Part shown: positions 31,993 to 64,000 of the stretch, in pieces | Position numbering within the stretch: position 1 is the first letter of the stretch | Layout of the letters: every line of letters begins with the position of its first letter | Source: Desulfotomaculaceae bacterium | GTDB lineage: Bacteria > Bacillota > Desulfotomaculia > Desulfotomaculales > Pelotomaculaceae | Assembly: GCA_041645005.1 (NCBI GenBank) | Contig: JBAZQW010000001.1 | Location: 26,728 to 90,727, forward strand | DNA length: 64,000 nucleotides | Direction of reading: 5' to 3' | The notes under the pieces: model-generated | What the model was told of the DNA's origin: nothing | The model's database searches: none | Seen by the model: only the letters and a program-made list of their open reading frames with translations | Program-made: the position numbers and the translations under genes

Positions 31993-32393
31993 TTCTTTCC
32001 CAGCTTTTTGACAACTTTGGCCGGCACGCCGAAAGCCACGCAATTGTCCGGTATATCCTTATTGACGAAAGAAAAAGCGCCGACAATTGAATTCTTGCCA
32101 ACTGTAACCCCCGGCATAACTACGCAGTGACTGCCGAGACAACTGTCTTTCTTAAGCCAGACTTTCCCATTTTTGCCGTCGATCGTGGAAACAGAATAGA
32201 TAGAACAATGCGAGCCGACCTGGACTCCGGCCTCGATAACTACTCCGTTCTTGGCGTTGATATATGTAAATGCCCCGATATCAGTCTTGTTGCCAAGCAC
32301 CAAGTTATTCGCATGCTGGATCAGCCAGTTATATTTGGTTAATTTACCCTCTTTAATCGCAGGCAAACGCCATTTCTTAAATCTTTCCGCCAT
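31989..32393 (-). CDS. Left-handed beta-helix (hexapeptide-repeat) N-acetyltransferase
   Basis: Hexapeptide periodicity: IGAFTYINAKNGVVIEAGVQVGSHCSI...LGSHCVVMPGVTVGKNSIVGAFSFV. ATG 32393 has AGGAG 6 nt upstream. Confidence 0.75.
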   Translation of the reverse strand: MAERFKKWRLPAIKEGKLTKYNWLIQHANNLVLGNKTDIGAFTYINAKNGVVIEAGVQVGSHCSIYSVSTIDGKNGKVWLKKDSCLGSHCVVMPGVTVGKNSIVGAFSFVNKDIPDNCVAFGVPAKVVKKLGKK

Positions 32394-32402
32394 GATCATC
32401 TC

Positions 32403-34309: not shown

Positions 34310-34313
34310 TTTC

Positions 34314-36001: not shown

Positions 36002-36014
36002 TTTGACGCCCGAT

Positions 36015-51832: not shown

Positions 51833-51845
51833 CCACCCCCCGAAT

Positions 51846-52556
51846 TCATGATTTATCAACCTCACCATCCGCAACCATCATTTTAATCTTTACCCTTGCC
51901 TTAACCATATTGCCAACCATCTCGGCCCCGGAAAATTCATATCTCGCCCCTCCCGATTCCAAAAAGGCCGACGGGTATCCGTCAGCATCAAGCATCCGGA
52001 TATGGTCATAAATACTCGCCAATCCCTTTATTTTCGAAATATCACTTTCCGAAGGCTGGCGTCGCTTAAAATATTTTACGGGCCCTCTTTGCGGTTGTGG
52101 CACCGGCCGTTTTTTGATTATATGAGGGATCATTTCATTGAAAATAATTTCTGCCGCCCTAGTGAATATTTCTTGGGCGGTTCCTTTTAACCGCAAATCA
52201 GCTTTTAAATAAACGGGCCCTGCATCATAATCCCCAGTTACTCTGAAAGCAGATATTTTAGTTTTATATATTCCCCTCGAAATTAAGTTCTGCAATGGGC
52301 TGCCACCTCGGCCAAAGGGCAGATCGGTCATATGAAAGGCAATGCATTCCCATTTTTTATATATCGCTTCCGGTATTTTCCACGACCAATGCGGAAAAAA
52401 AATCAATTCTGGATCAACATGATTGATCTTCTGATAGGTTAATTCATCATAGCGACTGATAATCCGCATTGGATCCGCACTCTTTTTGGCAAAAGCGGCG
52501 GCCAGCTTGATGTTCCAGGGCTTAACCGTCGCCACAATATAGTTCCTCCTTTTCAT
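51846..52556 (-). CDS. Formyltransferase-like protein, copy 2
   Basis: Motifs IFFPHWSWKIP, CIAFHMTDLPFGRGGSPLQ and YDAGPVY. The Asn of N-x-H is replaced by Ala. Confidence 0.6.
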   Translation of the reverse strand: MKRRNYIVATVKPWNIKLAAAFAKKSADPMRIISRYDELTYQKINHVDPELIFFPHWSWKIPEAIYKKWECIAFHMTDLPFGRGGSPLQNLISRGIYKTKISAFRVTGDYDAGPVYLKADLRLKGTAQEIFTRAAEIIFNEMIPHIIKKRPVPQPQRGPVKYFKRRQPSESDISKIKGLASIYDHIRMLDADGYPSAFLESGGARYEFSGAEMVGNMVKARVKIKMMVADGEVDKS

Positions 52557-54235
52557 CCCTGCATCCTAATGTTAAGAGCTTTCTCGACCTGGCCAACAAA
52601 CTCAGTGCGCTTGACTGGATAAGCCAGCGCCTCTTGGAATACTTTGACTGCGTTACTCTCAGAACGAGAAATAGCGGACCGGTCATTTATAATTCGTTTA
52701 AATGCATTCAAACCAGATTCGATATCGTAAAATACGATCCCTGCTTTTTCTAGTTCACCGTCGACCATCTTACCAAGCGGAAGAGCCTGTTGCTTTTCCC
52801 CGTTAGAATGGAAAACCATCGTCGGCACGCCAGCCGCCATTGATTCGGCAAAGCCGGTGCTGATCGTGTCCCAGAGCACCAGATCAACCTGATTGAAATA
52901 ATGAATCGGCTTATCATAAACAATCTTAACCAGGCCCCGCCCTAATTCTTCAGCAAGGACGTCCTTAATTGGATCTTTGGCAAAGGTACCAGGAAATGGC
53001 TTATAAAGAATCTGCGCGGACGGAAATAGCTTTAGTACTGCCCTTAACATCATCAACACCTTTAAACGATGCTGTCGATTCTTTTCCGGTGACGCTCCCT
53101 CAAGATCATCCATAAAATCCAACAAAGGGCCGGAAGGATACAAAATGGTAAAAACCGGTGGACTCACGGCCTTCCTTTCCCATTTTTTTATTTCGCCAAG
53201 ATAAGGACTGCCAAAATTAAATATTTTTAAATTGGCAAGAGGCGCGCCCTTGGCCAGCCAATCGCTATTCTTCACCCCCCACGAAAAAAAATAATCGAGA
53301 AAGACCAACTCATTGCTAAAACCACGATGGTCAACAATAAAATTTGTTATCCCATGCTCATAGCCGACCAAAATTGCTTTTTCTCTTTTTGCCAAAACGG
53401 CAAATATCTTGAGATTGTCATTGTATTGAAACCCGGTAAAAGAATGTAGTTGCCTGACCGGCCAGTCCTTGAGGAGCACCCGATAATAAGAAAATCTCGG
53501 CCGCAAACCCTCGACAAGACTAGTCGGCAAAATATGCTCGGCAAATTCCGCATATATCAGGGCCAGGAATTGTTTTTCTTGATCATGAAGTCCGGATAAT
53601 ATTCCATCAATTTCAATTAAAAATAATTCGGTCAATACGGCGCGAATCTGCCGCCGAGTAATCCGATCGACCTCTTTTACCCGGGGGTTAAAATCAAAGG
53701 CAAAAATATGCGAAGCGGGCATGAACATTCTCATCCAATTAGAATAATCACAAATATAAACTGGCTTCATTAATTTCATAAAAATATTGGACCGGAGGCC
53801 GAGTAAATATTTTTTCACGTTCCTAAGTTTAAGCAATATGAAACTCGATTGATCGATTTTGACCGTTATTGGCATTATGACGTCTTTGGCCCGCTCTTCC
53901 GCGCCAAATACTGAAGCGATCTGATTAAGCAACGTATAATTGACGGAAAAATCATAATAATAACTCTGAACTGCTTCGACCGTATTGTTATAATATTTGT
54001 TCTCCTTGGTAGCCGGCGGATAAATCTCTCGGTTCAAATATTGGCGCAACAGCCGCTCGACAAAAATATTGGTGGCTACATGCACCGGAAAACGGATGAC
54101 CAGCGCTAATTCATCGCGGGTTAAGCCGGAAAATACTTCGATTTTACTCTGGTGCAGCCGGTCGATCACTTGATCGATAAATTTATTCGTTTTTTCAACG
54201 ATCGCAGGCTGATCATATTTATCCGTCCAATCCAC
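52553..54235 (-). CDS. Uncharacterised 560-aa protein (U5), paralogue of 49429..51141
   Basis: Motifs RFPVHVATNIFVERLLR, KIFAVLAKREKAILVGYEHG, YKPFPGTFAKDPIK and VDLVLWDTISTGFAESMAAGVPTMVFH. GTG start at 54235. Confidence 0.4.
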   Translation of the reverse strand: MDWTDKYDQPAIVEKTNKFIDQVIDRLHQSKIEVFSGLTRDELALVIRFPVHVATNIFVERLLRQYLNREIYPPATKENKYYNNTVEAVQSYYYDFSVNYTLLNQIASVFGAEERAKDVIMPITVKIDQSSFILLKLRNVKKYLLGLRSNIFMKLMKPVYICDYSNWMRMFMPASHIFAFDFNPRVKEVDRITRRQIRAVLTELFLIEIDGILSGLHDQEKQFLALIYAEFAEHILPTSLVEGLRPRFSYYRVLLKDWPVRQLHSFTGFQYNDNLKIFAVLAKREKAILVGYEHGITNFIVDHRGFSNELVFLDYFFSWGVKNSDWLAKGAPLANLKIFNFGSPYLGEIKKWERKAVSPPVFTILYPSGPLLDFMDDLEGASPEKNRQHRLKVLMMLRAVLKLFPSAQILYKPFPGTFAKDPIKDVLAEELGRGLVKIVYDKPIHYFNQVDLVLWDTISTGFAESMAAGVPTMVFHSNGEKQQALPLGKMVDGELEKAGIVFYDIESGLNAFKRIINDRSAISRSESNAVKVFQEALAYPVKRTEFVGQVEKALNIRMQG

Positions 54236-55302
54236 TATCTGCCTCCGATCTGATAATCAAGGGTGAGCTGGTTTAGCTTGGTCGACAATTCTTTCTGCAT
54301 ATATTCTTTGTCAAAATATTTCACTCCCCGATAATATGTGACCGTTTCACCGCCAAACCCACGTTTAAAATTAGAAATGCTAACTTCTTTATCGCTCGGC
54401 AAATCGTTGAACTGCGGGCCAAATTGCTGAACGCCGATCTCATAGGTCTTGAAGCCCAGGTTCTTGAGATACTTGATCGTTTCCCACTGAATGACATGGG
54501 AAATAGGCACGTCATCTTTAAAATCAGGATCATCACTGGCCGAGGCGTAATAGGCAGCGCTTTTATAGATGCAAACATAAGAAAAGCCGACAAATCGTCC
54601 CTCGAAGCTCAGGCCACAAAGCAACCCTTCGCCATCTTTGATCCAGCGATACATCATTTCAAAAGTCTCAACCGGACGGGTCACCCGGCCCGCCGCTTTA
54701 TGATGCAATAACCGATATTGGTCAAAAATGGTTTTGTCCGCGTTATGGCGATCAATGAAATCCACTTTATAGTGTTTCGATCCGCGGTTAATATCGTACT
54801 TATGCCCTTTCCTGACCGCCGCCCAGATATCATCGATGGGCCGGTCAAGCTGAATCAATTCCGTATTAAGAGAATCATCAAGATAGCCGAGTTTGACCAG
54901 CCAGTTGAATTTCATCGTGGTCTTCGCCAGCGGACTGGAACGAAAATATATTTTTTTAATCGACCCCCCCCCGGCCAGCTCATCGATTTTTTCAAAAATG
55001 TATTTAATTACTTTTTCCCGCCGGCTACCGGACAGGCCATTGGCTAGCGCGGGAAGCGCCCCATATCGACCGCCACCTCTGGCGGCAAAAAGATCTTTTT
55101 CACAGAGCAGCGGACAGATGGCGATTAGGCCGGTGTCATCTTTAACAAGGAAAGAGAGGTTGTTCGTCCCAAAATTTTCCTGGCCGTAGACGACACAGTA
55201 ATCAAGCCATTTTATCGTATGCCAAAACCAAGCATCGTCTGATTGGCAACAAAAGTTGTCCCAGTCAGTCCGGTTGTTTTCAGTCAACGGCACTACTTGC
55301 AT
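54235..55302 (-). CDS. FemAB-family / GNAT-fold transferase
   Basis: 355 aa. It has the FemAB-like two-lobe layout (DIWAAVRKGHKYDINRG; FEGRFVGFSYVCIYKSAAYYASAS) and contains a G9 tract. Confidence 0.55.
   Translation of the reverse strand: MQVVPLTENNRTDWDNFCCQSDDAWFWHTIKWLDYCVVYGQENFGTNNLSFLVKDDTGLIAICPLLCEKDLFAARGGGRYGALPALANGLSGSRREKVIKYIFEKIDELAGGGSIKKIYFRSSPLAKTTMKFNWLVKLGYLDDSLNTELIQLDRPIDDIWAAVRKGHKYDINRGSKHYKVDFIDRHNADKTIFDQYRLLHHKAAGRVTRPVETFEMMYRWIKDGEGLLCGLSFEGRFVGFSYVCIYKSAAYYASASDDPDFKDDVPISHVIQWETIKYLKNLGFKTYEIGVQQFGPQFNDLPSDKEVSISNFKRGFGGETVTYYRGVKYFDKEYMQKELSTKLNQLTLDYQIGGR
54964..54972 (-). repeat. G9 homopolymer on the coding strand inside the FemAB-like gene (codons AGGGS)
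   Basis: Plus strand reads cga ccccccccc gg, with C at 54964..54972. This is the longest G/C run I found in the window. Confidence 0.9.
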
Positions 55303-56273
55303 TCCGGCCTCGATTTTAATTCAAAAAAAACACTGCCAATGGTGCGGACAGCCACGCCAGAGCTGAATTGGGGGGAATATTCCACGGTTTTACCATGATT
55401 AATGTCCAACCACCATTTAACATCATGAAAACCGAATCGATGCCGAAAAAATACCGTGCTGGAAATACGCGGATTTATCTCAAAAGGGAAAAAACCGGCC
55501 TTCGTCTTGCGCATCTGGACATTCATCGGCCCGACCAAACGACATAACCTGGCGAGCCTGGTCACTAGCCTGGTGATCCGCGGGTCCTCCGCCAATCGGG
55601 CGAATTTCGTCATGCTGCCATAACCAAGCTGACGTTTAAAGGCCATGGAAAGAACCTTTTTCCCATCGGAAAACACGGCAACCGTATATTCCTCGTCCTC
55701 CGTTCCAACCAACTCCTGAATGATCGATCTCGGATTTCTCCGGAGATAAAAATCCATCGCCGCCTGGTCCTCGACGCGGACCAAGCCTTTCCCGCCGCAA
55801 CTATGCCGATCTTTTAGCAACAAGGGAAATGATAAGTTGCCCCGATAATCTTCGGGCAGATAGGTCCGCGGCGCCTTAAAACCATGGGCCTTCAAATATT
55901 CGATGGTCAGGTATTTATCCAGGAATTTATCAATAATCTTCCTGTTCAACACCAGGACCTTAACACCTAATTTCTCAAAACGCCTCTTTTCCAGCGAGAA
56001 ATAATCGATCTCACCTTCAGTCAGCGGAATAATATGGCTAAGATTCAATTCTGCGATAGACCTTAAGATGAACTTTTCGTACCTTTGCCGGTCAGAGACA
56101 GAGGGAGCAGTTTTAAAGACATCCAGCAGGGCCCGCCCGGCCGCGTAGCGATCAAGATCGCAACCACAGAGTCGTTCCGCATACTCTGTTTCCAGCAAAC
56201 AGCCTGTCACCGATTGTCCAATATCACCACCAACCCCGGTCAATAATATTCGGCCCGCTTTATCTATTTTCAT
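55293..56273 (-). CDS. ATP-grasp ligase
   Basis: Motifs FPLLLKDRHSCGGKGLVRV, IIQELV and FFPFEINPRISS (E-x-N Mg site). Confidence 0.7.
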   Translation of the reverse strand: MKIDKAGRILLTGVGGDIGQSVTGCLLETEYAERLCGCDLDRYAAGRALLDVFKTAPSVSDRQRYEKFILRSIAELNLSHIIPLTEGEIDYFSLEKRRFEKLGVKVLVLNRKIIDKFLDKYLTIEYLKAHGFKAPRTYLPEDYRGNLSFPLLLKDRHSCGGKGLVRVEDQAAMDFYLRRNPRSIIQELVGTEDEEYTVAVFSDGKKVLSMAFKRQLGYGSMTKFARLAEDPRITRLVTRLARLCRLVGPMNVQMRKTKAGFFPFEINPRISSTVFFRHRFGFHDVKWWLDINHGKTVEYSPQFSSGVAVRTIGSVFFELKSRPECK

Positions 56274-56979
56274 CTTGCCCTTTCATCAACACTTGAGACA
56301 GATACGGCAATTCCGGGTCGTTTCGGCGCGCTTCCGCCGCGACCGCCCCAACGTCATATTGGGTCAGCCTGAATTCGACCGCCAATCCGGTCGTGTTTAG
56401 GATCGCCCAGCTCGCACCCGGCCGGCCGTCACGCGGCTGACCGACCGAACCAGGGTTCAAGAATGTTACGCCCTTGTTTTTTTTCAACAATGGATAATGG
56501 GTATGCCCCATGATCACCAGGTCATATTCCCCTTGAGCAACAGACCGATCAAAAACGTTTTCTGGCGCATCTGGATAAATATATTCGTCACGATCAAGCG
56601 GTGAACCGTGGCAAAGGATGATTTTTTTTCCCTCGATAACAAGTTCCCGCCGCCAGGGAAGAGCTTGCAACACGTTTATCTGCTCGTTGCTCAACTGTTC
56701 CGCCGCTTTCTTCAACGCCGATCCGTACTTGCTATTGTACTTAGCTCTTTGCCGGTCATCCCAAACCGAATGAGCCGCCAGCATCTCGTCATGATTCCCC
56801 TGGACCATTTCATAATCAAAATCGGACAAAACCACGAAAACCTCATCGGGATGATAATAATAACCAACCAGATCACCGGCAATAAGTAGCCGATCAATCC
56901 CCTCATTCCTGATCTCGTTCAACACCGCCTTCAAGGCCAGACTATTTCCGTGAATATCCCCCAGCACGGCAATTTTCAC
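56260..56979 (-). CDS. Calcineurin-like metallophosphoesterase (YfcE/MJ0936-like)
   Basis: Motifs VLGDIHGN, IAGDLV, GNHD, LCHGSP and MGHTH. GTG start (GTGA overlap). Confidence 0.8.
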   Translation of the reverse strand: MKIAVLGDIHGNSLALKAVLNEIRNEGIDRLLIAGDLVGYYYHPDEVFVVLSDFDYEMVQGNHDEMLAAHSVWDDRQRAKYNSKYGSALKKAAEQLSNEQINVLQALPWRRELVIEGKKIILCHGSPLDRDEYIYPDAPENVFDRSVAQGEYDLVIMGHTHYPLLKKNKGVTFLNPGSVGQPRDGRPGASWAILNTTGLAVEFRLTQYDVGAVAAEARRNDPELPYLSQVLMKGQDENR

Positions 56980-57818
56980 GCCATCCCCCCACTCTTGATT
57001 ATTTCTAAAACTTGCTTAAAACTTCGGCCAGCCAACAATTCGGACGACGGCTCAACAATCTGATCGCTCCCCGTCTCCCCCGGCAACCCGATCGGGCTTT
57101 GACCAGGCAAAAAAACGGCGCAAATTTCCTTCAGCATGTCGGCGATGGTTACCGGCACTGGGCCAGCCGCAAAATGTGTCCCGATAATTTTACGATCTAT
57201 CGCGTTAACAATCGTCGCGGCCAGATCATCGACATAAACATAATTACGCTTCGCTTTTCCATCTCCAACCAACGTCGGAAGGTTCCCGAGCATCGCCTGG
57301 TCGATCGCCCGGTTCAAAGCAAGATGCCCCGGCCCATTATGACCATAGATCCCAGAGATCCGGAGAATCAGGTGCTCAAGGCCGGCGGCCCGGACCAGCT
57401 CTTCCCCCAGCCATTTGCTACGGGCGTAGGCCGTATCTGGAGCGATCCCGGTCGCCTGGTTGATCAACGCCGTTCTCAATCCATGCACAGTTATTGACGA
57501 AGCGAAAACAAAATACGCCCCCGTCGCTTTTGCCCAACGAGCCAGTTCGGCCGTTGCCACAACATTGGGAACGAACAAATCGTCCATTATATTTTCAAAA
57601 TTAACCACCGCCGCCAAATGAACAATAACGTCGGCCTTTGGTAGGCGTGAAATTTTAGCGAAAAAATCGTTATCCGCCAGATCGACAACAAACTCCTCAT
57701 TTTCACCGGTTGCCACCCGATCAATCGATCTGACATGAAAGCCATGTTTCTTGAGCCGTCGGCTGACCGCTTTCCCGAGAAAACCAGCCGCGCCGGTCAC
57801 GACAACTGTTCTCTTCAT
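56976..57818 (-). CDS. NAD-dependent epimerase/dehydratase (SDR)
   Basis: Motifs VVVTGAAGFLGKAV and YARSK. Confidence 0.8.
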   Translation of the reverse strand: MKRTVVVTGAAGFLGKAVSRRLKKHGFHVRSIDRVATGENEEFVVDLADNDFFAKISRLPKADVIVHLAAVVNFENIMDDLFVPNVVATAELARWAKATGAYFVFASSITVHGLRTALINQATGIAPDTAYARSKWLGEELVRAAGLEHLILRISGIYGHNGPGHLALNRAIDQAMLGNLPTLVGDGKAKRNYVYVDDLAATIVNAIDRKIIGTHFAAGPVPVTIADMLKEICAVFLPGQSPIGLPGETGSDQIVEPSSELLAGRSFKQVLEIIKSGGMA

Positions 57819-57819
57819 T

Positions 57820-58869
57820 TCAGATCATGTCCTTCGTAATCCATTGATCCGCCTTAATATCTCTCCGGGCAACCCGACCAATAACCTTGCGCTCGTCTCT
57901 CGATTTAATCCCCAAACCCGGTCGTTTGACTGTCAACATTTCCGACGTTATCATCGTTCCGCTTTTTATATCATGAACAGCGTGCAAACTGCGACGAGCC
58001 AGGCGAAAATTTTCTCTTTCAGAATCAAGAACAACCTTTTTCCCGTCCCCAAGCAGTAACTCCGTATTCCTGAGATCGGCCACAAATGACCTTAGTTCAT
58101 CTGGCTCCAGAGAAAATGGGTGATCGGGACCGGTCTGTTTCTTATCCAAGGTGATATGCTTTTCGATCACACAAGCCCCCAGGGCGACCGCGGCAATCGA
58201 AGAGATCGGGGTTAAGGTGTGATCAGAAAAGCCAATCGGCAATTTGAACGTTTCTTTTAACGTATTGATTGCGCGTAAATTAATGTCCCGGTAAACGGCC
58301 GGATACTGGCTAACACAATGAAGCAGAATAATATCCCGGCTACCCGACCTCCTTAAAACAGTCAACGCTTCCCTAATCAATTTTAAGTCGCTATTGCCGG
58401 TCGAGATAATGACTGGTTTGCCAGTCTGACCGATCGCTTTGAGCAATCGGAAATCATCCGTCTCATAGCTGGCAATCTTGAAGAAAGGAACATTCAAGCG
58501 ATCCAGTTCTTTGACCGCCGCCAGGTCAAAAGGCGATGAGGCAAACAAGACGGCCCGTTCGCGACATCTCCGCCTAAGAACCTTATGCCATTCTCTCGGC
58601 ATTTCCAGTCTTTTTATCAGCTCGTATGGCCCTTCGCCCGCTCTTGAGCGGCCCTCCATTTCGGAAAGCCGCGGAGTGAATTTTGAATAAAGCGTGTCAG
58701 CACTGTAAGTCTGAAATTTGACCGCATCGACCCCAGCCTCAGCCGCAAGATCGATCATCCGCAACGCCGTCTTCAAATCTCGATTATGGTTAGAGCCTAT
58801 TTCGGCAATGATCAAAACCGGTTCGCCCTGGCCGACCAATCGGCCCCCGATCTTAACTTTATTTTTCAT
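57820..58869 (-). CDS. Nonulosonic acid synthase, PseI/SpsE-like NeuB-family member with SAF domain
   Basis: Motifs PVLIIAEIGSNHN, DAVKFQTY, GFSDHT and KRPGLGI. Confidence 0.85.
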   Translation of the reverse strand: MKNKVKIGGRLVGQGEPVLIIAEIGSNHNRDLKTALRMIDLAAEAGVDAVKFQTYSADTLYSKFTPRLSEMEGRSRAGEGPYELIKRLEMPREWHKVLRRRCRERAVLFASSPFDLAAVKELDRLNVPFFKIASYETDDFRLLKAIGQTGKPVIISTGNSDLKLIREALTVLRRSGSRDIILLHCVSQYPAVYRDINLRAINTLKETFKLPIGFSDHTLTPISSIAAVALGACVIEKHITLDKKQTGPDHPFSLEPDELRSFVADLRNTELLLGDGKKVVLDSERENFRLARRSLHAVHDIKSGTMITSEMLTVKRPGLGIKSRDERKVIGRVARRDIKADQWITKDMI

Positions 58870-59648
58870 CTCACTCCCGCTCCCCTAAGTAATTTTCTTA
58901 ATATCACGGAATTCTTCTTGAACGCTTCTAGCGTTTTGTATGACCGCTCCGGTATCTCCAGAGTAATTTTAGCGGACCGTCTTTTTTGAACCATGATCAT
59001 GAACAGCCTCTTAAGGTCGATATTCCCATCCCCGAGCGCCAGATGCTGATCAAAACAACCAGTCGTATTGGCGTCACAAATATGGATGATCCCGGGCTTT
59101 AAGGCTAAATAACGCTCGGCATATTCCAGGTAATCCTGACCAAGAGCGAAAGCCGCTTTGACCGCGTGCGCGACATCAAAGCAAAAACCGACCCCCGCCA
59201 CCCGCTGGATCTCTCTGATCTCCGCCGGCGTGCTGCCGACCCCCTTGGTCTCGAGCAGGGAAATAAACGGCATATTCTCAACCAACAGCCGATCGTCCTT
59301 CAGCGCTTTAAGCTGTTTCGCCGTTTCCCGGCAATCTCCCTTTAAGCCGGGGTGAATGATAATTTCCCGCGCCTTTAATTTATCGGCAAAGGCAACCGCC
59401 TCGGCAAGCAACTGATGATTACCTTTTCGTCGATCTTTGTCAGCCAGATTAAGCCCGTACATTTCATGTGGCGCGTGGATCACGTACGGGACATTTAGCC
59501 CCAGCCAATTTGAAATTGTTCCCCGAAAACTGCCCGGCACAGCGAAAAGCTCGACGTAATCACAATCACCACGAGCGAAAAGCTCGCCAGCCGTTTTAAT
59601 CGCGGAAATATTCCTTGAAAACAATTTTAAGCCAACCTGATATCTCAT
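58866..59648 (-). CDS. Xylose-isomerase-like TIM-barrel protein (sugar-phosphate isomerase/epimerase family)
   Basis: 260 aa. Motifs IIHPG, LVENMPF and FDVAHA...ICDAN...HLALGDGNID. Confidence 0.6.
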   Translation of the reverse strand: MRYQVGLKLFSRNISAIKTAGELFARGDCDYVELFAVPGSFRGTISNWLGLNVPYVIHAPHEMYGLNLADKDRRKGNHQLLAEAVAFADKLKAREIIIHPGLKGDCRETAKQLKALKDDRLLVENMPFISLLETKGVGSTPAEIREIQRVAGVGFCFDVAHAVKAAFALGQDYLEYAERYLALKPGIIHICDANTTGCFDQHLALGDGNIDLKRLFMIMVQKRRSAKITLEIPERSYKTLEAFKKNSVILRKLLRGAGVR

Positions 59649-59649
59649 T

Positions 59650-60537
59650 TTATTTATTTTTGACCGGCATGAAAAACCCAGAGATCTCTCGTCCTAGCCC
59701 AAGCTCGCTTAGCGCGCGGTAATAATTATTGGTCTTATCTACCGAGATGGAGTGCATCAGATTCTCGACCGCCACTCTTTCCTTATGGCATGACTTGCCT
59801 TTTGTCTTATCCCTAACATAATTCGTGTTCTCATTCATCAACCTTAGATCGATGGGATAATCAGAAATCATATCGACAGTTTTCCAGCCGCTCCGCAGGC
59901 AAATATTCCTGAGACCTTCATTATTGAAATAATGAAGATGATCGGGTAAGCAAACCCAAAACTCATCGTCAATATAGCCGTTACGAAGCAGAAACGTCTG
60001 GAGGCTGGAAAAATCATTTGGCACTTCGATAACGCACACTCCCTGGTCCGAGATAATTGATCGACAATCCTTAAGCAATTTATAAGGATCAAGCACATGC
60101 TCAAGAACATTATCAAGCCAGATCACGTCATATCTGTTCTCCTTGGCTATTATCGCGGATAGATTTTCATAGATATCACCGACAATCAGGTCATCGGCAC
60201 ATTCCGGATTGTTTTTTTTACATCCATATTCGCTGTAATCCAGGCCAACAACCTGCCACCCTTTACTCTTAAAGAATTTGAGTGCCCAACCCTCGCCGCA
60301 CCCAACATCGAGAAAAGTTTTCTTATTACCGCCCAAATGTTCTTTTATTACCTGATATCTTTGTTCGATCTTATTTTGGAAATATTCGACCTCGGCCCTA
60401 GAATAAACGCTTTCATAAGACCCTTTATTTTCCTGAAAATAATTTTCCTTATAATAGTCTGTTAACTTTTCTTTTGAGGGCATATCGATCGCGCTGAAGA
60501 AGCCGTATTCGTTTTTCCGAACCTTATCGGTCATCAT
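59650..60537 (-). CDS. Class I SAM-dependent methyltransferase
   Basis: Motifs FLDVGCGEGWALKFF and VIWLDNVLEHVLDP. Confidence 0.8.
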   Translation of the reverse strand: MMTDKVRKNEYGFFSAIDMPSKEKLTDYYKENYFQENKGSYESVYSRAEVEYFQNKIEQRYQVIKEHLGGNKKTFLDVGCGEGWALKFFKSKGWQVVGLDYSEYGCKKNNPECADDLIVGDIYENLSAIIAKENRYDVIWLDNVLEHVLDPYKLLKDCRSIISDQGVCVIEVPNDFSSLQTFLLRNGYIDDEFWVCLPDHLHYFNNEGLRNICLRSGWKTVDMISDYPIDLRLMNENTNYVRDKTKGKSCHKERVAVENLMHSISVDKTNNYYRALSELGLGREISGFFMPVKNK

Positions 60538-61844
60538 TCCAACCTCCTAAATCCGGCGTGGCAAACCGGGCCTTTAAGACAAGCTTCAACCCGCTTATCT
60601 TTTACCGCTTGGGCAATAAAAGCAAAAGATTCATCCGCCGCTTTAAAATAACCGGCGACATGTTCTGGTTTGTGGGCATAAGACGAATAAAAGGCGTTGC
60701 AAGCGAGATACCCCTTATCCAGCATTACCTGGGTGAATAGGGTTTTGAGCGCCAGGTGATTGTCGTAATCAAAGGAAAAATGGCCGAGCGGCGCGATGCC
60801 GGATACCGTTACCTTGAGGCCGTGCTTCTGCGCTTTTTCGGCCCAGCCGGCCTGGACTTCTTTACCGGTCTTGACCAGATGTTCCGGGACATTCTTCTCT
60901 TTCATCTTCTTTATCGTGGCGATTGCCGCGGTCGGCCCGACCCGCTCCGTCCAATAAGTACTGCTGATAAAAGTCTCCTGGGCGGCGGACATCGCGTCGC
61001 CCGTACCGATCACCGCTCCGATCGGAAAACCATTCCCCAACGCCTTGCCAAAGACCGCCAGGTCAGGCTTAAGACCGTATAACAGATGAGCCCCACCAAG
61101 ATTTAAGCGCCAGCCGGAGCTGACCTCGTCGCAGATCATGACCACACCGGCTTGTTTAGTCGCCTGCCTGATCTCATCAAGAAAGCCGTCTTTTGGCTCG
61201 TAATTTCTGATCGTTTCCACCACGACCGCGGCGATCTTACCCTTATGTTTCTCCATCAACGACCGAAAACCTTTGATATCATTGTAAATAAACGGCTTAG
61301 CGGTCCCGATGAGACCGCGCGGAACACCTTTAGGAGAAAGCCCAGCTATCAAATGACCGTCCAGCGCTTGGTCATCGGCTAAATTGGCGGAAAGATACCA
61401 GTCATGCCAGCCATGATAGCCGCAAAAAAGAATGAGGTCTTTTCCTGTCCTGGCCCTGGCGATCCGAACGGCAACAGCCAACGCTTCTCCGCCGGTTCTC
61501 ACGTACCTGACCATTCCTGCCCAGGGGTGCAGATCGCACAAAAGCTCGGCCAGTTCGACCTCTTCGGGACAGTTCAACGTCGTCATCGAACCTTTGTCGA
61601 CCGCCTGTTTGACCGCTTTGTTCACGTCTGGGTCGGCATAGCCAAGAACGCAGGCACCGATACCCATATAGCTCATATCAATATATTTATTACCGTCCAG
61701 GTCCCAGACCTCGCACCCTGCGGCCCGCTCATAATAAGCCGGCCAGCGGTCTGGGAGGAACATTTCCGGCCGCTTGGACAGAAGCTGGGTCCCGCCCGGA
61801 ATGATCTGCTTGGCTTTTTTATATAGATCTTGTGATTTTCCCAT
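60534..61844 (-). CDS. Class III aminotransferase (glutamate-1-semialdehyde aminomutase-like)
   Basis: Motifs IIPGGTQLLSKRP, DEVSSGWRL and FGKALGNGFPIGAV. Confidence 0.8.
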   Translation of the reverse strand: MGKSQDLYKKAKQIIPGGTQLLSKRPEMFLPDRWPAYYERAAGCEVWDLDGNKYIDMSYMGIGACVLGYADPDVNKAVKQAVDKGSMTTLNCPEEVELAELLCDLHPWAGMVRYVRTGGEALAVAVRIARARTGKDLILFCGYHGWHDWYLSANLADDQALDGHLIAGLSPKGVPRGLIGTAKPFIYNDIKGFRSLMEKHKGKIAAVVVETIRNYEPKDGFLDEIRQATKQAGVVMICDEVSSGWRLNLGGAHLLYGLKPDLAVFGKALGNGFPIGAVIGTGDAMSAAQETFISSTYWTERVGPTAAIATIKKMKEKNVPEHLVKTGKEVQAGWAEKAQKHGLKVTVSGIAPLGHFSFDYDNHLALKTLFTQVMLDKGYLACNAFYSSYAHKPEHVAGYFKAADESFAFIAQAVKDKRVEACLKGPVCHAGFRRLE

Positions 61845-61847
61845 AAT

Positions 61848-62618
61848 TTATTTTCTCTCCTTCACAATCTTGTCTTCGCGCAAAGATTTTTGATAACCTT
61901 CATTTCTGGTTATATGGGAATTTATCTGCTCAAGCTCCGGATATTTCGCCAAATATTCAAGAATATCATCCATAGAAAATAAATTGTTTTTTTGATAAAG
62001 CGCGCTGTAGATCTTGCCGACAAATTCCAGGTCTTCCTGATTATCCAATGTCCAACGCTTCTCCTTAAGGTTCGTCTTATATTCAACTCCCGCCAGCTTA
62101 AAAAACGCCGGATTCTTCCTGATATAAGCGGTCACATGTTCGCGTTCCGAAGAAAGTTTCGCCTCTATCCAGGCTTTTTCTAAAGCCGCGGCGCTGAAGA
62201 CTTCGACATCTTCTCCATCCGGAAAAGTTTCATTGATGGTATTCGAAGTGTAATCAGCTCGATCCTTGATATGCTTGCGCAAAACCGTTTCGATCACCTG
62301 TGGGTCCATGAGCGGGCAATCGGCCGTTATCCTGATCACCGTTTTGGCCTTGAACAACTTTGCCGCTTGATAATACCTGTCCAACACATCATCTTCGGAC
62401 CCGCAATAAACGCTTATCCCCTGCTCCGCGCAAAGCTTAATGATCGGCAGATCGCCTTTCGATACGGTGGTGGCGACTACCACCTCGTTGACCAGGCGGC
62501 AGGCCTGGACCCTTCGAATCACGTGCTCCAACACTGTTTTATCTGCAATCTTTATCAGTGCCTTACCCGGCAATCTGGTCGAACCCATTCGCGCTTGAAT
62601 TATGGCGACTATTTTCAT
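61848..62618 (-). CDS. SpsF/PseF-like cytidylyltransferase
   Basis: Motifs MKIVAIIQARMGSTRLPGKALIKI and RITADCPLMDP. Confidence 0.8.
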   Translation of the reverse strand: MKIVAIIQARMGSTRLPGKALIKIADKTVLEHVIRRVQACRLVNEVVVATTVSKGDLPIIKLCAEQGISVYCGSEDDVLDRYYQAAKLFKAKTVIRITADCPLMDPQVIETVLRKHIKDRADYTSNTINETFPDGEDVEVFSAAALEKAWIEAKLSSEREHVTAYIRKNPAFFKLAGVEYKTNLKEKRWTLDNQEDLEFVGKIYSALYQKNNLFSMDDILEYLAKYPELEQINSHITRNEGYQKSLREDKIVKERK

Positions 62619-63497
62619 TTATGCGCCAACTTTCTTCCCGGCCCAATTAAACGGCAAAAGAATCTCTTCATTTTGTTCTTTTAACTGGTCTAATTCTGGT
62701 AACAGGCCGGCCACTTCCGAGGAGCGACCGGCCGCGAGGATCAGTTCTTTCAAGTTTTCCGGACTATCCACCCCAACAATCACCTGGTCCACCTGATCAT
62801 TTAAAACAGCATAATTTAAACAGATCGCCTGGATCGATATGTTATTCAGGGAAGCAAGGGAGCGCAGACTGGTTATTTTATCCTTGATAGCATTAAATGA
62901 CGGGTCAAGCTCTGCCGGATTTTTGAATGCCAATCCCTGTAAAAACACCGACCGGACATGGACCTCGATTCCTTTCCGCTTAAGGGTCGGTAAATAATCT
63001 TCGAAACGGCGGTCAAAAATACTATACGGAAACTGAACAAGATCAAAAGGGACTTCATTGGTCAGCAGCTCATCAAGCTCTTTTGGATAATAAAGAGAAA
63101 ATCCGATCTTGGCGATTTTACCAGAGCGCTTTTGTTCCACAAGCCAATCATAGATAACTGGTTGAAAACGGTAAGTCTCAAAATCATGGAAAATATATCC
63201 GTATAAAGAAGTCCGCCCCAACCTCTGAAGTGTTTCCGCCAGATAATTTGGCGCTTCCGCAACCTGGCATTTTGGCAACTTTGAAACCAGTTGAAAATAA
63301 TTCTTTTTGAAACGTAAATATTCACCAATAACTGTTTCGCTTTCGCCGTAACCATAGGCCGTATCCAAAAGATCAACTCCGGCCGCCGCTGCTTCGTCCA
63401 GGATCGCAAATACCTCTTCTCGCGGAACTTTACCCCGTTGGTTGTTGACGCCGTAATCCAATCCGAATTGAACCGTCCCCAAAGTAAGCTTGTTCAT
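62619..63497 (-). CDS. Aldo/keto reductase
   Basis: Motif LGTVQFGLDYGVNNQRGKVPREEVFAILDEAAAAGVDLLDTAYGYGESE. Confidence 0.8.
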   Translation of the reverse strand: MNKLTLGTVQFGLDYGVNNQRGKVPREEVFAILDEAAAAGVDLLDTAYGYGESETVIGEYLRFKKNYFQLVSKLPKCQVAEAPNYLAETLQRLGRTSLYGYIFHDFETYRFQPVIYDWLVEQKRSGKIAKIGFSLYYPKELDELLTNEVPFDLVQFPYSIFDRRFEDYLPTLKRKGIEVHVRSVFLQGLAFKNPAELDPSFNAIKDKITSLRSLASLNNISIQAICLNYAVLNDQVDQVIVGVDSPENLKELILAAGRSSEVAGLLPELDQLKEQNEEILLPFNWAGKKVGA

Positions 63498-64000
63498 GGC
63501 AAACCTGCTTCCGAAATAACTTGTTTAAATGTGTCGATCACATAAGTGACATCTTCATCGTTCATTTTAGGGAATAGCGGCAAAGTGATGGCTCCGTGAT
63601 AATAAGCTTCCGCGTTGGGGCATAAGCCGGGCTGATAGCCCAGCTGGCGATAATAAGGCTGAAGATAGACCGGAAAATAATGAACATTAACTCCAATTCC
63701 TTTACTCCTAAGTTGTTCGAATATCTCTTTCCTCTTGTCCGAAACAACGACCGGATAGATATGCCAGGCAGAAGCTCGCCCTGGTTTAACTTTAATGGTC
63801 TTGACACCAGCCAAGCCGGCCAAGGCCCGCTCGTATTGAATAACGATCTCTTGCCGTCGTTTGATAAACTTATCCAGTTTTTCCAGCTGTTTTATCCCCA
63901 AAGCTGCCTGGAAGTCGGTCAGGCGGTAATTGAAGCCGAGGTGATGCAGCTCGTAATACCAAGCTCCTTCGTCCGGCCTGGTCAAGACACTCTGTTCGCG
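63494..64000 (-). CDS. DegT/PseC-type aminotransferase, C-terminal part only; the 5' end runs off the right edge
   Basis: The frame stays open from 63985 to the window edge. YELHHLGFNYRLTDFQAALGIKQLEKLDKFIKRRQEI is a typical DegT C-domain. Confidence 0.8.
   Translation of the reverse strand, partial: REQSVLTRPDEGAWYYELHHLGFNYRLTDFQAALGIKQLEKLDKFIKRRQEIVIQYERALAGLAGVKTIKVKPGRASAWHIYPVVVSDKRKEIFEQLRSKGIGVNVHYFPVYLQPYYRQLGYQPGLCPNAEAYYHGAITLPLFPKMNDEDVTYVIDTFKQVISEAGLP

What the first reader, a model, noticed from the sequence alone, without database searches (positions are those of the whole stretch)
54235..64000. PseI-type nonulosonate module coupled to ATP-grasp, FemAB-like, class-III aminotransferase and methyltransferase genes: candidate amino-acid-decorated nonulosonic acid
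In transcription order the block starts with a DegT/PseC-like gene (partial), an aldo/keto reductase and an SpsF/PseF-like cytidylyltransferase. A GSA-aminomutase-like aminotransferase, a methyltransferase and a TIM-barrel isomerase follow. Then come a PseI-like synthase, an SDR, a metallophosphoesterase, an ATP-grasp ligase and a FemAB-like transferase. ATP-grasp and FemAB-type enzymes ligate amino acids. Nonulosonates N-acylated with amino acids are known chemically, for example glutamyl- or alanyl-substituted Leg/Pse derivatives. The enzymes that attach those groups are poorly defined. This block could encode such a route. The phosphoesterase and TIM-barrel genes hint at a phosphorylated intermediate.
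Basis: inference. Interest (0 to 1): 0.65.

Follow-up and report, generated by a model that had tools for sequence, protein, structure and literature searches.

The report
Decorated pseudaminic-acid sugar operon, non-canonical
This is a real operon for a pseudaminic-acid-type surface sugar that lacks two standard enzymes and instead carries a widespread, uncharacterised enzyme cassette (phosphoesterase plus ATP-grasp ligase) and a FemX-like transferase that probably attach unusual acyl or amino-acid groups to the sugar.

Summary
The gene list is correct: eleven co-directional, overlapping minus-strand genes with the stated domains. The source contig continues upstream with true PseB and full-length PseC, and with Wza and Wzz, so this is a polysaccharide locus and not a flagellin island. 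The window has no PseH, PseG or canonical PseF. Across 80 related loci the metallophosphoesterase sits directly upstream of the ATP-grasp gene in 73 of 82 cases, and fused versions of the two exist. ATP-grasp fused to a GNAT acetyltransferase also exists. The pair usually neighbours a Pse-type NeuB, PseB/PseC, a reductase and often the methyltransferase. The "TIM-barrel isomerase" keeps all endonuclease-IV metal ligands and never co-occurs with PseG, so it probably replaces PseG. The FemAB-like protein models as a FemX fold; its nearest structures are all aminoacyl-tRNA-dependent transferases. It is a rare accessory, sitting where relatives carry a GNAT. The amino-acid reading is therefore plausible and has a precedent in the C. 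difficile type B flagellin locus, but it is unproven. The acid could be a non-amino acid, and the phosphoesterase coupling is unexplained. I found no paper characterising the cassette. Verdict: a new variant of a known kind, of moderate to high interest.

The parts
63494..64000 (-). PseC aminotransferase, C-terminal 168 aa only. The gene runs off the window; the full gene is 382 aa on the source contig.
   Evidence: Pfam DegT. TIGR03588 PseC scores 187.9 bits on the fragment and 519.6 bits on the full gene, against a cut-off of 423.5. A PseB equivalog lies immediately upstream on contig L001.
62619..63497 (-). Aldo/keto reductase; partner of the class III aminotransferase; role unknown.
   Evidence: PF00248. 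The catalytic tetrad D45/Y50/K73/H104 is conserved in 22 homologues. It co-occurs with the aminotransferase: 19 loci have both, 6 have only the aminotransferase and 2 only the reductase, p=1.6e-11. It is fused to an SpsF-like cytidylyltransferase in Vibrio B9-25K2 (PMC7371886).
61848..62618 (-). SpsF-type cytidylyltransferase; probable CMP-nonulosonate synthetase standing in for PseF.
   Evidence: PF02348. It is not a PseF equivalog (25.6 bits against a cut-off of 205.7). It tends not to co-occur with canonical PseF in related loci (2 loci have both, 26 only the SpsF type, 18 only PseF). It is the only cytidylyltransferase in the minimal islands L004 and L019. SpsF is needed for Leg transfer in B. 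subtilis (PMC7439481).
60534..61844 (-). Class III (GSA-aminomutase-like) aminotransferase; role unknown.
   Evidence: PF00202. NF004856 scores 277.6 bits, below its cut-off of 486. The PLP lysine K267 and D239 are conserved. PDB relatives are GSAM and aminoglycoside C-6' aminotransferases.
59650..60537 (-). SAM-dependent methyltransferase; an optional member of the tailoring cassette.
   Evidence: Methyltransf_23 and related families. It is present in 35 of 80 loci and directly precedes the phosphoesterase in 21 of them.
58866..59648 (-). Endonuclease-IV/CbiR-like TIM-barrel metalloenzyme; proposed UDP-sugar hydrolase replacing PseG.
   Evidence: PF01261 and a weak CbiR/Nfo match. Family-invariant residues H58/H61, H99, E124, D158, H161, H189, D200, H202 and E231 align with the EndoIV ligand motifs. 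It never co-occurs with PseG: 0 loci have both, 12 have only the TIM barrel and 38 only PseG (p=3e-4, or 2e-5 in loci with PseC and NeuB). It sits in the same slot upstream of NeuB. L085-L087 are consistent.
57820..58869 (-). NeuB-family nonulosonate synthase, Pse-like.
   Evidence: NeuB + SAF. PseI scores 335.5 against a cut-off of 340.25 and NeuB_NnaB 364 against 399.65. The best PDB match is pseudaminic acid synthase 8h2c. The KIASYE / HCVSQYP signature matches the Pse type (PMC7371886).
56976..57818 (-). Extended SDR (RmlD-like) of the tailoring cassette.
   Evidence: PF01370 and PF04321. The catalytic S107/Y131/K135 are conserved. It rarely co-occurs with a classical SDR that otherwise precedes the phosphoesterase (3 loci have both, 26 only this SDR, 26 only the classical one; p=6e-4).
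56260..56979 (-). Metallophosphoesterase (YfcE/ApaH-like); obligate partner of the ATP-grasp enzyme.
   Evidence: Metallophos_2. Metal ligands D8, H10, D36, N62, H63, H124 and H161 are at least 95% conserved in 76 members. It lies directly upstream of the ATP-grasp gene in 73 of 82 cases, with a median 4-nt overlap. Fused Metallophos-ATP-grasp proteins P0354 and P0357 exist.
55293..56273 (-). ATP-grasp carboxylate-amine ligase ('carbamoyl-phosphate-synthase-like', PRK12767).
   Evidence: PF02655, PF15632 and PF21360. The AF2 model has pLDDT 92.6. Foldseek neighbours are 2pn1, PylC, an L-amino-acid ligase, PurK, PurT and PurD. K120, K154, E265 and N267 are conserved. There are 445 relatives among genome species representatives and 192 clusters at E<=1e-30. 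GRASP-GNAT fusions exist.
54235..55302 (-). FemX-like tandem-GNAT transferase; probable aminoacyl-tRNA-dependent N-acyltransferase.
   Evidence: Acetyltransf_6. TIGR04421 scores 99 bits, below its cut-off of 250. The AF2 model has pLDDT 94.7. Top Foldseek hits are FemX 1NE9 (TM 0.69/0.72), FemA, Sbb17/Sba18 and MprF. Its R209 aligns with FemX R211. It occupies the slot held by a PseH-like GNAT in the closest syntenic loci. Orthologues lie in '...MPH GRASP Fem LIC12162'.
52553..54235 (-). LIC12162-family protein; candidate transferase for the activated sugar and recurrent neighbour of the Fem gene.
   Evidence: PF27859 in the precomputed annotation and a weak TIGR04331 match. The Fem-LIC12162 pair recurs in L006 (twice), L085 and L087.
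51113..52556 (-). Formyltransferase (51846-52556) plus PIG-L de-N-acetylase (51113-51874); probable N-acetyl to N-formyl exchange module.
   Evidence: Pfam and NCBIfam. The same pair follows the ATP-grasp gene in L013, L050, L053, L056, L060 and L069.

Best explanation
The block is the central part of one operon that makes a CMP-activated, heavily tailored pseudaminic-acid-type nonulosonate for a Wza/Wzz/Wzy surface polysaccharide.

**Shown by sequence**
- Canonical PseB and PseC start the pathway and would give UDP-4-amino-4,6-dideoxy-L-AltNAc.
- A Pse-like NeuB synthase is present.
- PseH, PseG and canonical PseF are absent from the 64-kb window and from the 10 kb upstream.

**Inferred**
1. 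The EndoIV/CbiR-like TIM-barrel enzyme removes UDP in place of PseG.
2. The SpsF-type cytidylyltransferase makes the CMP-sugar in place of PseF.
3. The free 4-amino group (later N7), or an amine exposed by the PIG-L deacetylase, is acylated by non-acetyl-CoA chemistry. The ATP-grasp ligase, working as a unit with its fused-or-adjacent metallophosphoesterase and helped by the SDR and the methyltransferase, couples a carboxylic acid to a sugar amine. The acid may be an amino acid or a phosphorylated hydroxy acid.
4. The FemX-like enzyme takes the place of the usual small GNAT and adds an aminoacyl group from aminoacyl-tRNA. It acts either on the sugar amine or on the alpha-amine of the first residue, which would give an aminoacyl or dipeptidyl substituent.
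5. The formyltransferase/PIG-L pair swaps the other N-acetyl for N-formyl.
6. The LIC12162-family proteins transfer the finished sugar.
For: - Gene content and order.
- PseB and PseC equivalogs, and Wza/Wzz upstream.
- No PseG, PseH-like GNAT or classical SDR anywhere in the window.
- Conserved synteny in 80 loci from many phyla.
- Phosphoesterase directly upstream of the ATP-grasp gene in 73 of 82 cases, with a 4-nt median overlap.
- Metallophos-ATP-grasp fusions and four independent ATP-grasp-GNAT fusion clusters.
- TIM barrel and PseG never co-occur, and the TIM barrel keeps the EndoIV ligands.
- Catalytic residues of all cassette enzymes are conserved.
- 12 of 44 loci with PseC, NeuB and the ATP-grasp gene have no recognisable N-acyltransferase within 10 kb. 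This fits the ATP-grasp enzyme doing an N-acylation.
- FemX-like fold, with aminoacyl-tRNA-dependent enzymes as nearest structures.
- Fem orthologues lie at the same operon position.
- Precedents: C. difficile CDR20291_0244/0245 (PMC5207246); N-methyl-glutamyl Leg on C. botulinum flagellin (PMC2674064, PMC13317340).
Against: - No biochemical data exist for any cassette member.
- Structural neighbours of the ATP-grasp enzyme include enzymes that are not amino-acid ligases (PurK, PurT, biotin carboxylase).
- An ATP-grasp ligation leaves no phosphate on its product, so the obligate phosphoesterase is unexplained by simple amino-acid ligation.
- In many loci PseG and PseH-like GNATs coexist with the cassette, so the cassette is an add-on and not a strict replacement.
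- In L086 Fem coexists with a GNAT and occurs without the cassette.
- Fem could act on the polymer together with the LIC12162 proteins.
- The co-occurrence statistics are not corrected for phylogeny.
- PseG or PseH could be encoded elsewhere in the genome.
Confidence: 0.5

Rival explanations
1. The ATP-grasp/phosphoesterase cassette installs a non-amino-acid acyl group. The ATP-grasp enzyme ligates a phosphorylated hydroxy or keto acid (for example 3-phosphoglycerate or KDPG) to the sugar amine. The phosphoesterase then removes the phosphate, while the SDR reduces and the methyltransferase O-methylates the side chain. Products would resemble N-glyceroyl or 2-methoxy-trihydroxyhexanoyl Pse. Fem alone would supply any amino acid.
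For: - Tight phosphoesterase/ATP-grasp coupling and fusions.
- A reductase almost always sits directly upstream, and a UbiG-like methyltransferase often does.
- Such acyl groups are known on Pse: Pse5Am7Gra in T. forsythia, whose tailoring enzymes are explicitly unknown (PMC5378307, PMC6388019), and the 2-methoxy-4,5,6-trihydroxyhexanoyl nonulosonate on T. denticola FlaB (PMC13439194).
- T. forsythia has six unassigned ORFs inside its pse locus (PMC6120980).
Against: - No homologue was shown in T. forsythia or T. denticola.
- The ATP-grasp-GNAT fusions, with RimJ/RimL-like Acetyltransf_3 domains, fit N-acetylation of an aminoacyl alpha-amine better.
- The Firmicute flagellin islands carry the pair without any reductase.
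Confidence: 0.22
2. The cassette does core-pathway work only. The ATP-grasp enzyme is an ATP-dependent substitute for PseH, using acetate or formate as PurT does. The phosphoesterase and/or the TIM barrel are nucleotide-sugar hydrolases. The product is essentially ordinary Pse5Ac7Ac or a formyl variant, and Fem acts elsewhere.
For: - 12 of 44 loci lack any N-acyltransferase.
- PurT and PurK are among the structural neighbours.
- Metallophosphoesterases such as LpxH hydrolyse UDP-sugars (established knowledge), and the nearest PDB relative, 3qfm, I recall as a nucleotide-polyphosphate hydrolase (for the hit; the function is from my own knowledge).
- Bacteroidota loci have neither PseG nor the TIM barrel.
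Against: - More than half of the loci carry PseH-like GNATs and/or PseG as well as the cassette.
- This reading gives no reason for the linked reductase and methyltransferase.
- The ATP-grasp-GNAT fusions would be redundant.
Confidence: 0.13
3. The FemX-like protein does not act on the nucleotide sugar. It aminoacylates the finished or growing polysaccharide, or a lipid-linked unit, together with the LIC12162-family transferase. It is functionally separate from the ATP-grasp cassette.
For: - The Fem-LIC12162 pairing recurs in the window, L006 (twice), L085 and L087.
- Fem occurs without the cassette in L086.
- Two further FemAB-like genes lie in other parts of the island.
- NCBIfam pairs FemAB_IMCC1989 with a PLP enzyme family, and a weak relative of that family lies at 48467-49432.
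Against: - Fem sits exactly where the closest relatives have the PseH-like GNAT, and these loci then lack that GNAT.
- Its R209 aligns with FemX R211. From my own knowledge, not tested here, FemX R211 contacts the UDP-diphosphate of the acceptor, which would point to a nucleotide-linked acceptor.
Confidence: 0.15

Closest known systems
Canonical CMP-pseudaminic acid pathway (PseB, PseC, PseH, PseG, PseI, PseF of Campylobacter/Helicobacter)
   Same: PseB and PseC are true equivalogs. A NeuB-family synthase carries Pse-type signature residues. A cytidylyltransferase is present.
   Different: There is no PseH, no PseG and no PseF equivalog. Their places are taken by a FemX-like protein or the ATP-grasp enzyme, an EndoIV-like TIM barrel, and an SpsF-type cytidylyltransferase. 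Seven extra tailoring genes are present.
C. difficile type B flagellin modification locus (CDR20291_0244 FemAB-like, 0245 ATP-grasp, 0246, 0247), which makes a sulfonated peptidylamido-sugar (PMC5207246)
   Same: A FemAB-like gene and an ATP-grasp 'carbamoyl-phosphate-synthetase-like' gene lie side by side next to an amino-sugar aminotransferase. The ATP-grasp mutant loses the peptidylamido sugar.
   Different: The sugar there is a 3-amino-6-deoxyhexose, not a nonulosonate. No phosphoesterase partner is reported. That ATP-grasp protein was assigned to a different Pfam family (PF13535).
FemX of Weissella viridescens and the aminoacyl-tRNA-dependent peptide synthases Sbb17/Sba18
   Same: These are the best structural matches to the window's Fem protein (TM 0.62-0.72). 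FemX acts on a UDP-linked acceptor, and Sbb17/Sba18 act on an amino sugar.
   Different: Sequence identity is only 15-17%. The Pfam FemAB model is not matched. The donor and acceptor are unknown.
B. subtilis sps legionaminic acid pathway (SpsC, D, E, F, G, M; PMC7439481) and Gram-positive flagellin glycosylation islands (C. botulinum, Exiguobacterium)
   Same: They use an SpsF-type cytidylyltransferase and an SpsE-like synthase. The islands L003, L004 and L019 carry the same phosphoesterase/ATP-grasp pair next to PseI.
   Different: Those islands have Maf transferases and flagellins, and usually PseG. The window has Wza/Wzz/Wzy, a TIM barrel, Fem, and the reductase/aminotransferase pair.
Endonuclease IV / CbiR phosphodiesterases (AP_endonuc_2 TIM barrels)
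   Same: All endonuclease-IV metal-ligand positions (the nine-ligand list is from my own knowledge) are conserved in the window's TIM-barrel family. There is a weak NCBIfam match to CbiR and Nfo.
   Different: The context is a sugar pathway in the PseG slot. The closest structure, MJ1311, is itself uncharacterised. No nucleotide-sugar hydrolase of this fold is known to me.

Membership tests
Canonical Pse pathway | PseB inverting 4,6-dehydratase | tested here: met
   TIGR03589 scores 550.6 bits against a cut-off of 407.75, on the source contig just outside the window.
Canonical Pse pathway | PseC aminotransferase | tested here: met
   TIGR03588 scores 519.6 bits against a cut-off of 423.5 for the full gene. 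The window holds its C-terminal 168 aa.
Canonical Pse pathway | PseH GNAT N-acetyltransferase | tested here: not met
   tblastn with all members of the f10/f27 PseH-like families finds nothing in the window, and none lies in the 10 kb upstream.
Canonical Pse pathway | PseG UDP-sugar hydrolase (GT-B fold) | tested here: not met
   No PseG-like sequence is present in the window; the only hits come from the cytidylyltransferase part of a fusion protein. No Glyco_tran_28_C match appears in any Pfam scan.
Canonical Pse pathway | PseI synthase | tested here: inconclusive
   TIGR03586 scores 335.5 bits against a cut-off of 340.25, and NeuB_NnaB 364 against 399.65. The diagnostic residues are Tyr/Ser, against Phe/Ser in Pse enzymes.
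Canonical Pse pathway | PseF CMP-Pse synthetase | tested here: not met
   TIGR03584 scores 25.6 bits against a cut-off of 205.7. An SpsF-type CTP_transf_3 is present instead.
ATP-grasp carboxylate-amine ligases | ATP-grasp fold with conserved ATP-binding lysines and the E-x-N Mg ligands | tested here: met
   Pfam families PF02655 and PF15632. The AF2 model has pLDDT 92.6, and Foldseek matches PylC, PurK and L-amino-acid ligase at E about 1e-16. K120, K154, E265 and N267 are at least 95% conserved.
ATP-grasp amino-acid ligases specifically | An amino acid as the carboxylate substrate | not testable with these tools
   No specificity signature is available. The neighbours include both amino-acid ligases and other ligases.
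FemABX aminoacyl-tRNA-dependent transferases | Tandem GNAT fold of FemX type | tested here: met
   The AF2 model has pLDDT 94.7. The top 11 PDB hits are FemX, FemA and Sbb17/Sba18, with TM up to 0.72.
FemABX aminoacyl-tRNA-dependent transferases | Match to the Pfam FemAB model (PF02388) or an NCBIfam model above its cut-off | tested here: not met
   Only Acetyltransf_6 is matched (E=1e-7). TIGR04421 scores 99 bits against a cut-off of 250. A PDB sequence search gives FemA at E=0.25.
FemABX aminoacyl-tRNA-dependent transferases | Conserved acceptor-binding Arg and catalytic Lys (FemX R211 and K305) | tested here: inconclusive
   The invariant R209 aligns with FemX R211. The invariant F312-K313 plausibly matches F304-K305, but that region was not aligned. 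The residue roles come from my own knowledge.
FemABX aminoacyl-tRNA-dependent transferases | Use of aminoacyl-tRNA as donor | not testable with these tools
   This needs an enzyme assay.
Calcineurin-like metallophosphoesterases | The D-x-H, GD, GNH, H and GH metal-binding motifs | tested here: met
   Metallophos_2 scores 103.9 bits. D8, H10, D36, N62, H63, H124 and H161 are conserved in 76 members.
Endonuclease IV-type AP_endonuc_2 enzymes | TIM barrel with the nine trinuclear-metal ligands | tested here: met
   PF01261. The invariant His/Glu/Asp pattern aligns with the EndoIV motifs. The ligand list comes from my own knowledge of E. coli Nfo.
Flagellin glycosylation island | Flagellin and Maf (MptE-like) transferase genes nearby | tested here: not met
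   No flagellin or MptE-like domain occurs in any ORF of at least 150 aa in the window or in the 10 kb upstream. Wza, Wzz and Wzy_C are present instead.

The most novel reading that the evidence does not exclude
The reductase / metallophosphoesterase / ATP-grasp cassette, with a GNAT or FemX-like enzyme attached, is the long-sought general machinery that diversifies the N-acyl groups of pseudaminic-acid-type sugars across bacteria and archaea. In the same pathway variant, an endonuclease-IV-like TIM-barrel phosphodiesterase is a previously unrecognised non-orthologous replacement for PseG. The window's version would then make a peptidyl- or aminoacyl-pseudaminic acid, using both ATP-dependent and tRNA-dependent amide-bond formation on one sugar.
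Probability: 0.3. Interest if true: 0.78.

Novelty: new variant of a known kind. Interest (0 to 1): 0.6.

Why it matters
Nonulosonic acids on flagella, capsules, S-layers and O-antigens carry many N-acyl groups, including glyceroyl, hydroxybutyryl, N-methylglutamyl, acetylalanyl and hexanoyl derivatives. These groups shape immune recognition, phage and lectin binding, and motility.

Reviews of the Tannerella system state that the enzymes installing the groups are essentially unknown (PMC5378307, PMC6388019).

This locus belongs to a very widespread gene cassette: 445 or more species representatives, including cultivable Exiguobacterium, Flavobacterium, Clostridium and Helicobacter relatives. 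Its gene order, fusions and intact active sites make it a concrete, testable candidate for that chemistry.

It also points to a possible new enzyme class for the PseG step, and to tRNA-dependent aminoacylation of a nucleotide sugar. If confirmed, it would improve structure prediction from gene clusters and give enzymes for chemoenzymatic synthesis of modified pseudaminic acids.

Tried and rejected
1. **Flagellin-island reading: rejected.** The window and its upstream flank have Wza/Wzz/Wzy and no flagellin or Maf.
2. **Link to the chemically defined C. botulinum Leg5GluNMe7Ac: not established.** The C. botulinum locus that carries the pair (L003) is Pse-type: it has a PseB-like dehydratase and an F/S-type synthase. 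The papers do not name a glutamyl ligase.
3. **Link to T. forsythia Pse5Am7Gra and the T. denticola hexanoyl-Pse: not testable here.** The T. denticola paper is not held. The T. forsythia papers dismiss the intervening ORFs without annotating them, and the supplement has nothing.
4. **Literature searches** for ATP-grasp or metallophosphoesterase together with pseudaminic, legionaminic or nonulosonic acids gave no characterisation of the cassette.
5. **Sequence-only PDB searches** of Fem and of the ATP-grasp protein were uninformative: FemA at E=0.25, and only the structural-genomics entry 2pn1. Structure prediction was needed.
6. **'TIM-barrel isomerase': rejected** in favour of a phosphodiesterase, because all EndoIV ligands are kept and PseG is always absent when it is present.
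7. **Phosphoesterase as the PseG replacement: considered but not favoured.** It coexists with PseG in many loci.
8. **One search call failed** on term syntax.

Full report
**Observation**

| Coordinates | Gene |
|---|---|
| 63494-64000+ | PseC-type DegT, partial |
| 62619-63497 | aldo/keto reductase |
| 61848-62618 | SpsF/KdsB-like CTP_transf_3 |
| 60534-61844 | GSA-aminomutase-like class III aminotransferase |
| 59650-60537 | Methyltransf_23 |
| 58866-59648 | AP_endonuc_2 TIM barrel |
| 57820-58869 | NeuB + SAF |
| 56976-57818 | extended SDR |
| 56260-56979 | Metallophos_2 |
| 55293-56273 | ATP-grasp |
| 54235-55302 | Acetyltransf_6 (FemAB-like) |

Adjacent genes overlap or are separated by at most 3 nt, so this is one translationally coupled operon. 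The whole 64-kb window is a single minus-strand glycan island.

**Context outside the window**

An exact-protein look-up found the source, an 87.7-kb metagenome contig.
- Upstream of the window edge lie UDP-glucose dehydrogenase, Wza, Wzz, Gmd, a fucose-synthase-like SDR and a GalE-like SDR.
- Then come a true PseB (TIGR03589, 550.6 bits against a cut-off of 407.75) and the full PseC (TIGR03588, 519.6 bits against 423.5).
- Downstream, the operon continues with a LIC12162-family protein, a formyltransferase and a PIG-L deacetylase.
- With Wzy_C at 4251-5630 and no flagellin or Maf gene anywhere, this is a surface-polysaccharide locus and not a flagellin island.
- The nearest relatives of its proteins are in Margulisiibacteriota, Saganbacteria, Omnitrophota and similar uncultured lineages.

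**What is missing**

The pathway entry is canonical Pse chemistry, but the window has no PseH-like GNAT, no PseG and no PseF equivalog.

The synthase is borderline between the PseI and NeuB models. Its best PDB match is a pseudaminic acid synthase. It carries Tyr and Ser at the two positions reported to distinguish Pse enzymes (Phe, Ser) from Neu/Leg enzymes (Gly) (PMC7371886). The window's second NeuB (34958-36025) has Gly and scores above the NeuB_NnaB cut-off.

**Comparative genomics of the ATP-grasp gene**

The ATP-grasp protein has 152 word-index homologues. It has 192 50%-identity clusters at E<=1e-30 and 445 relatives among GTDB species representatives.

I fetched 80 loci and clustered all their ORFs locally.
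- The metallophosphoesterase is the gene directly upstream of the ATP-grasp gene in 73 of 82 cases, with a median 4-nt overlap.
- NeuB is present in 63 of 80 loci and is the next gene downstream in 33.
- PseC is present in 46 loci and PseB in 33.
- Directly upstream of the phosphoesterase is a classical SDR (28 cases), the methyltransferase (21, usually preceded by the extended SDR), or the extended SDR (12).
- The two SDR types rarely co-occur (3 loci with both; p=6e-4).
- The pair occurs in flagellin glycosylation islands of Clostridium botulinum, Exiguobacterium and Jeotgalibacillus. It also occurs in polysaccharide loci of Bacteroidota, Desulfobacterota, Planctomycetota, Omnitrophota and archaea.

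**Fusion proteins**

- Two independent clusters fuse Metallophos_2 to the ATP-grasp domain, in the same order as the genes (P0354, P0357).
- Four clusters fuse the ATP-grasp domain to a C-terminal RimJ/RimL/PseH-like GNAT (P0245, P0248, P0261, P0285, plus the L048 protein).
- One protein is a tandem double ATP-grasp.

The phosphoesterase, the ligase and a small acetyltransferase therefore act as one functional unit. All catalytic residues are conserved across the families: the metallophosphoesterase ligands, the ATP-grasp lysines and E-x-N motif, the SDR triad, the aldo/keto reductase tetrad and the PLP lysine.

**The TIM barrel**

In the related loci this protein and PseG never co-occur: 0 loci have both, 12 have only the TIM barrel and 38 have only PseG. 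Fisher p is 3e-4 overall, and 2e-5 among loci that have PseC and NeuB. The two occupy the same slot just upstream of the synthase. Three further loci agree.

The family keeps invariant His, Glu and Asp residues that align with the metal-ligand motifs of endonuclease IV. Its best structural relatives by sequence are MJ1311 and endonuclease IV, and NCBIfam gives weak matches to CbiR phosphodiesterase and Nfo.

I therefore read it as a metal-dependent phosphodiesterase that releases the 6-deoxy-hexose from UDP, not as an isomerase. This is an inference from exclusivity and active-site conservation. It is not shown, and the statistics are not corrected for phylogeny.

**The cytidylyltransferase and its neighbours**

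The SpsF-type cytidylyltransferase and canonical PseF tend not to co-occur. The SpsF type is the only cytidylyltransferase in the minimal islands. SpsF is required for transfer of legionaminic acid in B. subtilis (PMC7439481). It is therefore the likely CMP-sugar synthetase.

The aldo/keto reductase and the class III aminotransferase are tightly coupled to each other (p=1.6e-11) and to the SpsF type. An AKR-SpsF fusion was noted in a Vibrio Pse cluster (PMC7371886). The same trio appears in Legionella pneumophila serogroup 6/12 O-antigen loci (PMC3694923). Their role remains unknown.

**The FemAB-like protein**

Sequence evidence is weak: Acetyltransf_6 at E=1e-7, TIGR04421 at 99 bits against a cut-off of 250, and FemA at E=0.25.

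Structural evidence is stronger.
- An AlphaFold model built on 31 homologues is confident (pLDDT 94.7).
- Its top structural matches are Weissella FemX (TM 0.69/0.72), a second FemX (PDB 6snr), S. aureus FemA and the aminoacyl-tRNA-dependent peptide synthases Sbb17/Sba18, which were solved with an amino sugar. MprF aminoacyl-phosphatidylglycerol synthases follow.
- A profile alignment puts the invariant Arg209 on FemX Arg211.

Position in the operon:
- The gene is rare among ATP-grasp loci (4 of 80).
- Its orthologues sit at the same place, '...phosphoesterase, ATP-grasp, Fem, LIC12162', in Syntrophaceae and other contigs.
- In the closest syntenic loci that slot holds the PseH-like GNAT (L005, L015, L029, L032, L040, L047).
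- One Saganbacteria locus has Fem with a GNAT and without the cassette.

**Mechanistic reading**

Shown by sequence: the PseB/PseC entry, a Pse-like synthase, and intact active sites.

Inferred:
- The TIM barrel replaces PseG, and the SpsF-type enzyme replaces PseF.
- The ATP-grasp unit acylates a sugar amine with a carboxylic acid.
- A capping enzyme then acts on that substituent or on the remaining amine. In most relatives this is a GNAT; here it is the FemX-like aminoacyl transferase.
- The formyltransferase/PIG-L pair, a recurrent add-on after the ATP-grasp gene in six other loci, exchanges an N-acetyl for an N-formyl group.
- LIC12162-family proteins transfer the sugar.

The RimJ/RimL-like nature of the fused GNAT fits acetylation of an aminoacyl alpha-amine. 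So do the C. difficile precedent, where a FemAB-like and an ATP-grasp gene are adjacent and the ATP-grasp gene is required for a peptidylamido-sugar (PMC5207246), and the known N-methyl-glutamyl legionaminic acid of C. botulinum (PMC2674064). Together these make an aminoacyl or peptidyl substituent the leading guess.

The guess is not secure. The ATP-grasp fold is equally close to PurK, PurT, PurD and biotin carboxylases. Simple amino-acid ligation does not explain an obligate phosphoesterase. The main rival is ligation of a phosphorylated hydroxy acid followed by dephosphorylation, reduction and O-methylation. That would account for the N-glyceroyl group in T. forsythia or the methoxy-trihydroxyhexanoyl group in T. 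denticola (PMC5378307, PMC13439194). I could not test whether those organisms carry the cassette.

**Novelty**

I found no paper that characterises the phosphoesterase/ATP-grasp cassette in nonulosonate loci. Reviews state that nonulosonate-modifying enzymes are largely unknown (PMC5378307, PMC6388019). A distant relative was solved by structural genomics without a function (2pn1).

The window is one member of a large, unstudied but recognisable variant of a known kind of gene cluster. The locus itself is not unique. Its interest lies in the combination of a missing PseH/PseG, the EndoIV-like replacement, and both ATP-dependent and probably tRNA-dependent amide-forming enzymes on one sugar.

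Noticed in passing
window 29873-37793 (- strand): A second, separate nonulosonate module. It comprises a Polysacc_synt_2 dehydratase, DegT, a NeuC/LegG-type 2-epimerase, a formyltransferase, PIG-L and NeuB2, followed by an ABC exporter. NeuB2 scores 468 bits on TIGR03569, above its cut-off, and has Gly at the Neu/Leg-diagnostic position. It probably makes an N-formylated Leg- or Neu-type sugar.
   Followed up: partly
window 44640-45365, 39167-40588, 27788-28474, 25174-25977, 14412-15179: Five further CTP_transf_3 cytidylyltransferase genes, one of them fused to a GT2. This implies that several different CMP-activated sugars are made by one island.
   Followed up: no
window 52553-54235, 49429-51351, 46554-48536; also 18673-20610 and 25977-27791: Three tandem LIC12162-family proteins, one TIGR04326 protein and one protein with only a faint PFTS-motif (TIGR04417) match, each 560-660 aa, none with a hit at E<=0.001 above the gathering cut-off in the local Pfam-A copy (46554-48536 has one sub-threshold OLD-like TOPRIM match). 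They are candidate ulosonate transferases or polymerases of unknown mechanism.
   Followed up: partly
window 10638-11675 and 8465-10657: Two more FemAB-like genes. One matches Pfam FemAB itself. The other is fused to a polysaccharide deacetylase domain. They sit next to a DegT-like gene and suggest further aminoacylated amino sugars in the same glycan.
   Followed up: no
L048:10004-11596 and proteins P0245, P0248, P0261, P0285, P0354, P0357, P0379: Natural fusion proteins: ATP-grasp fused to a GNAT, metallophosphoesterase fused to ATP-grasp, and a tandem double ATP-grasp.
   Followed up: yes
L079:5200-7000 region, L081:5217-6992: In Flavobacterium and Mucilaginibacter loci, a 591-aa protein fuses a divergent NeuB-like domain to an SpsF-like cytidylyltransferase. 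It lies upstream of PseG, a NeuD-type acetyltransferase and the cassette.
   Followed up: partly
window 28471-29859; family f14 in L005, L008, L009, L011, L016, L085, L087: B12-binding radical SAM enzymes recur next to PseC in these loci, and there is one in the window. They may carry out C-methylation or another radical modification of the sugar or its acyl group.
   Followed up: no
L086:7190-7960: A WbqC-family protein sits between a GNAT and NeuB in the Saganbacteria locus that has Fem but lacks the phosphoesterase/ATP-grasp pair. It may be an alternative to the cassette.
   Followed up: no
window 48467-49432: A 321-aa ORF with a weak match to TIGR04422 (PLP_IMCC1989), the family that NCBIfam pairs with FemAB_IMCC1989. 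A clear PLP_IMCC1989 gene follows Fem-LIC12162 in L085.
   Followed up: partly
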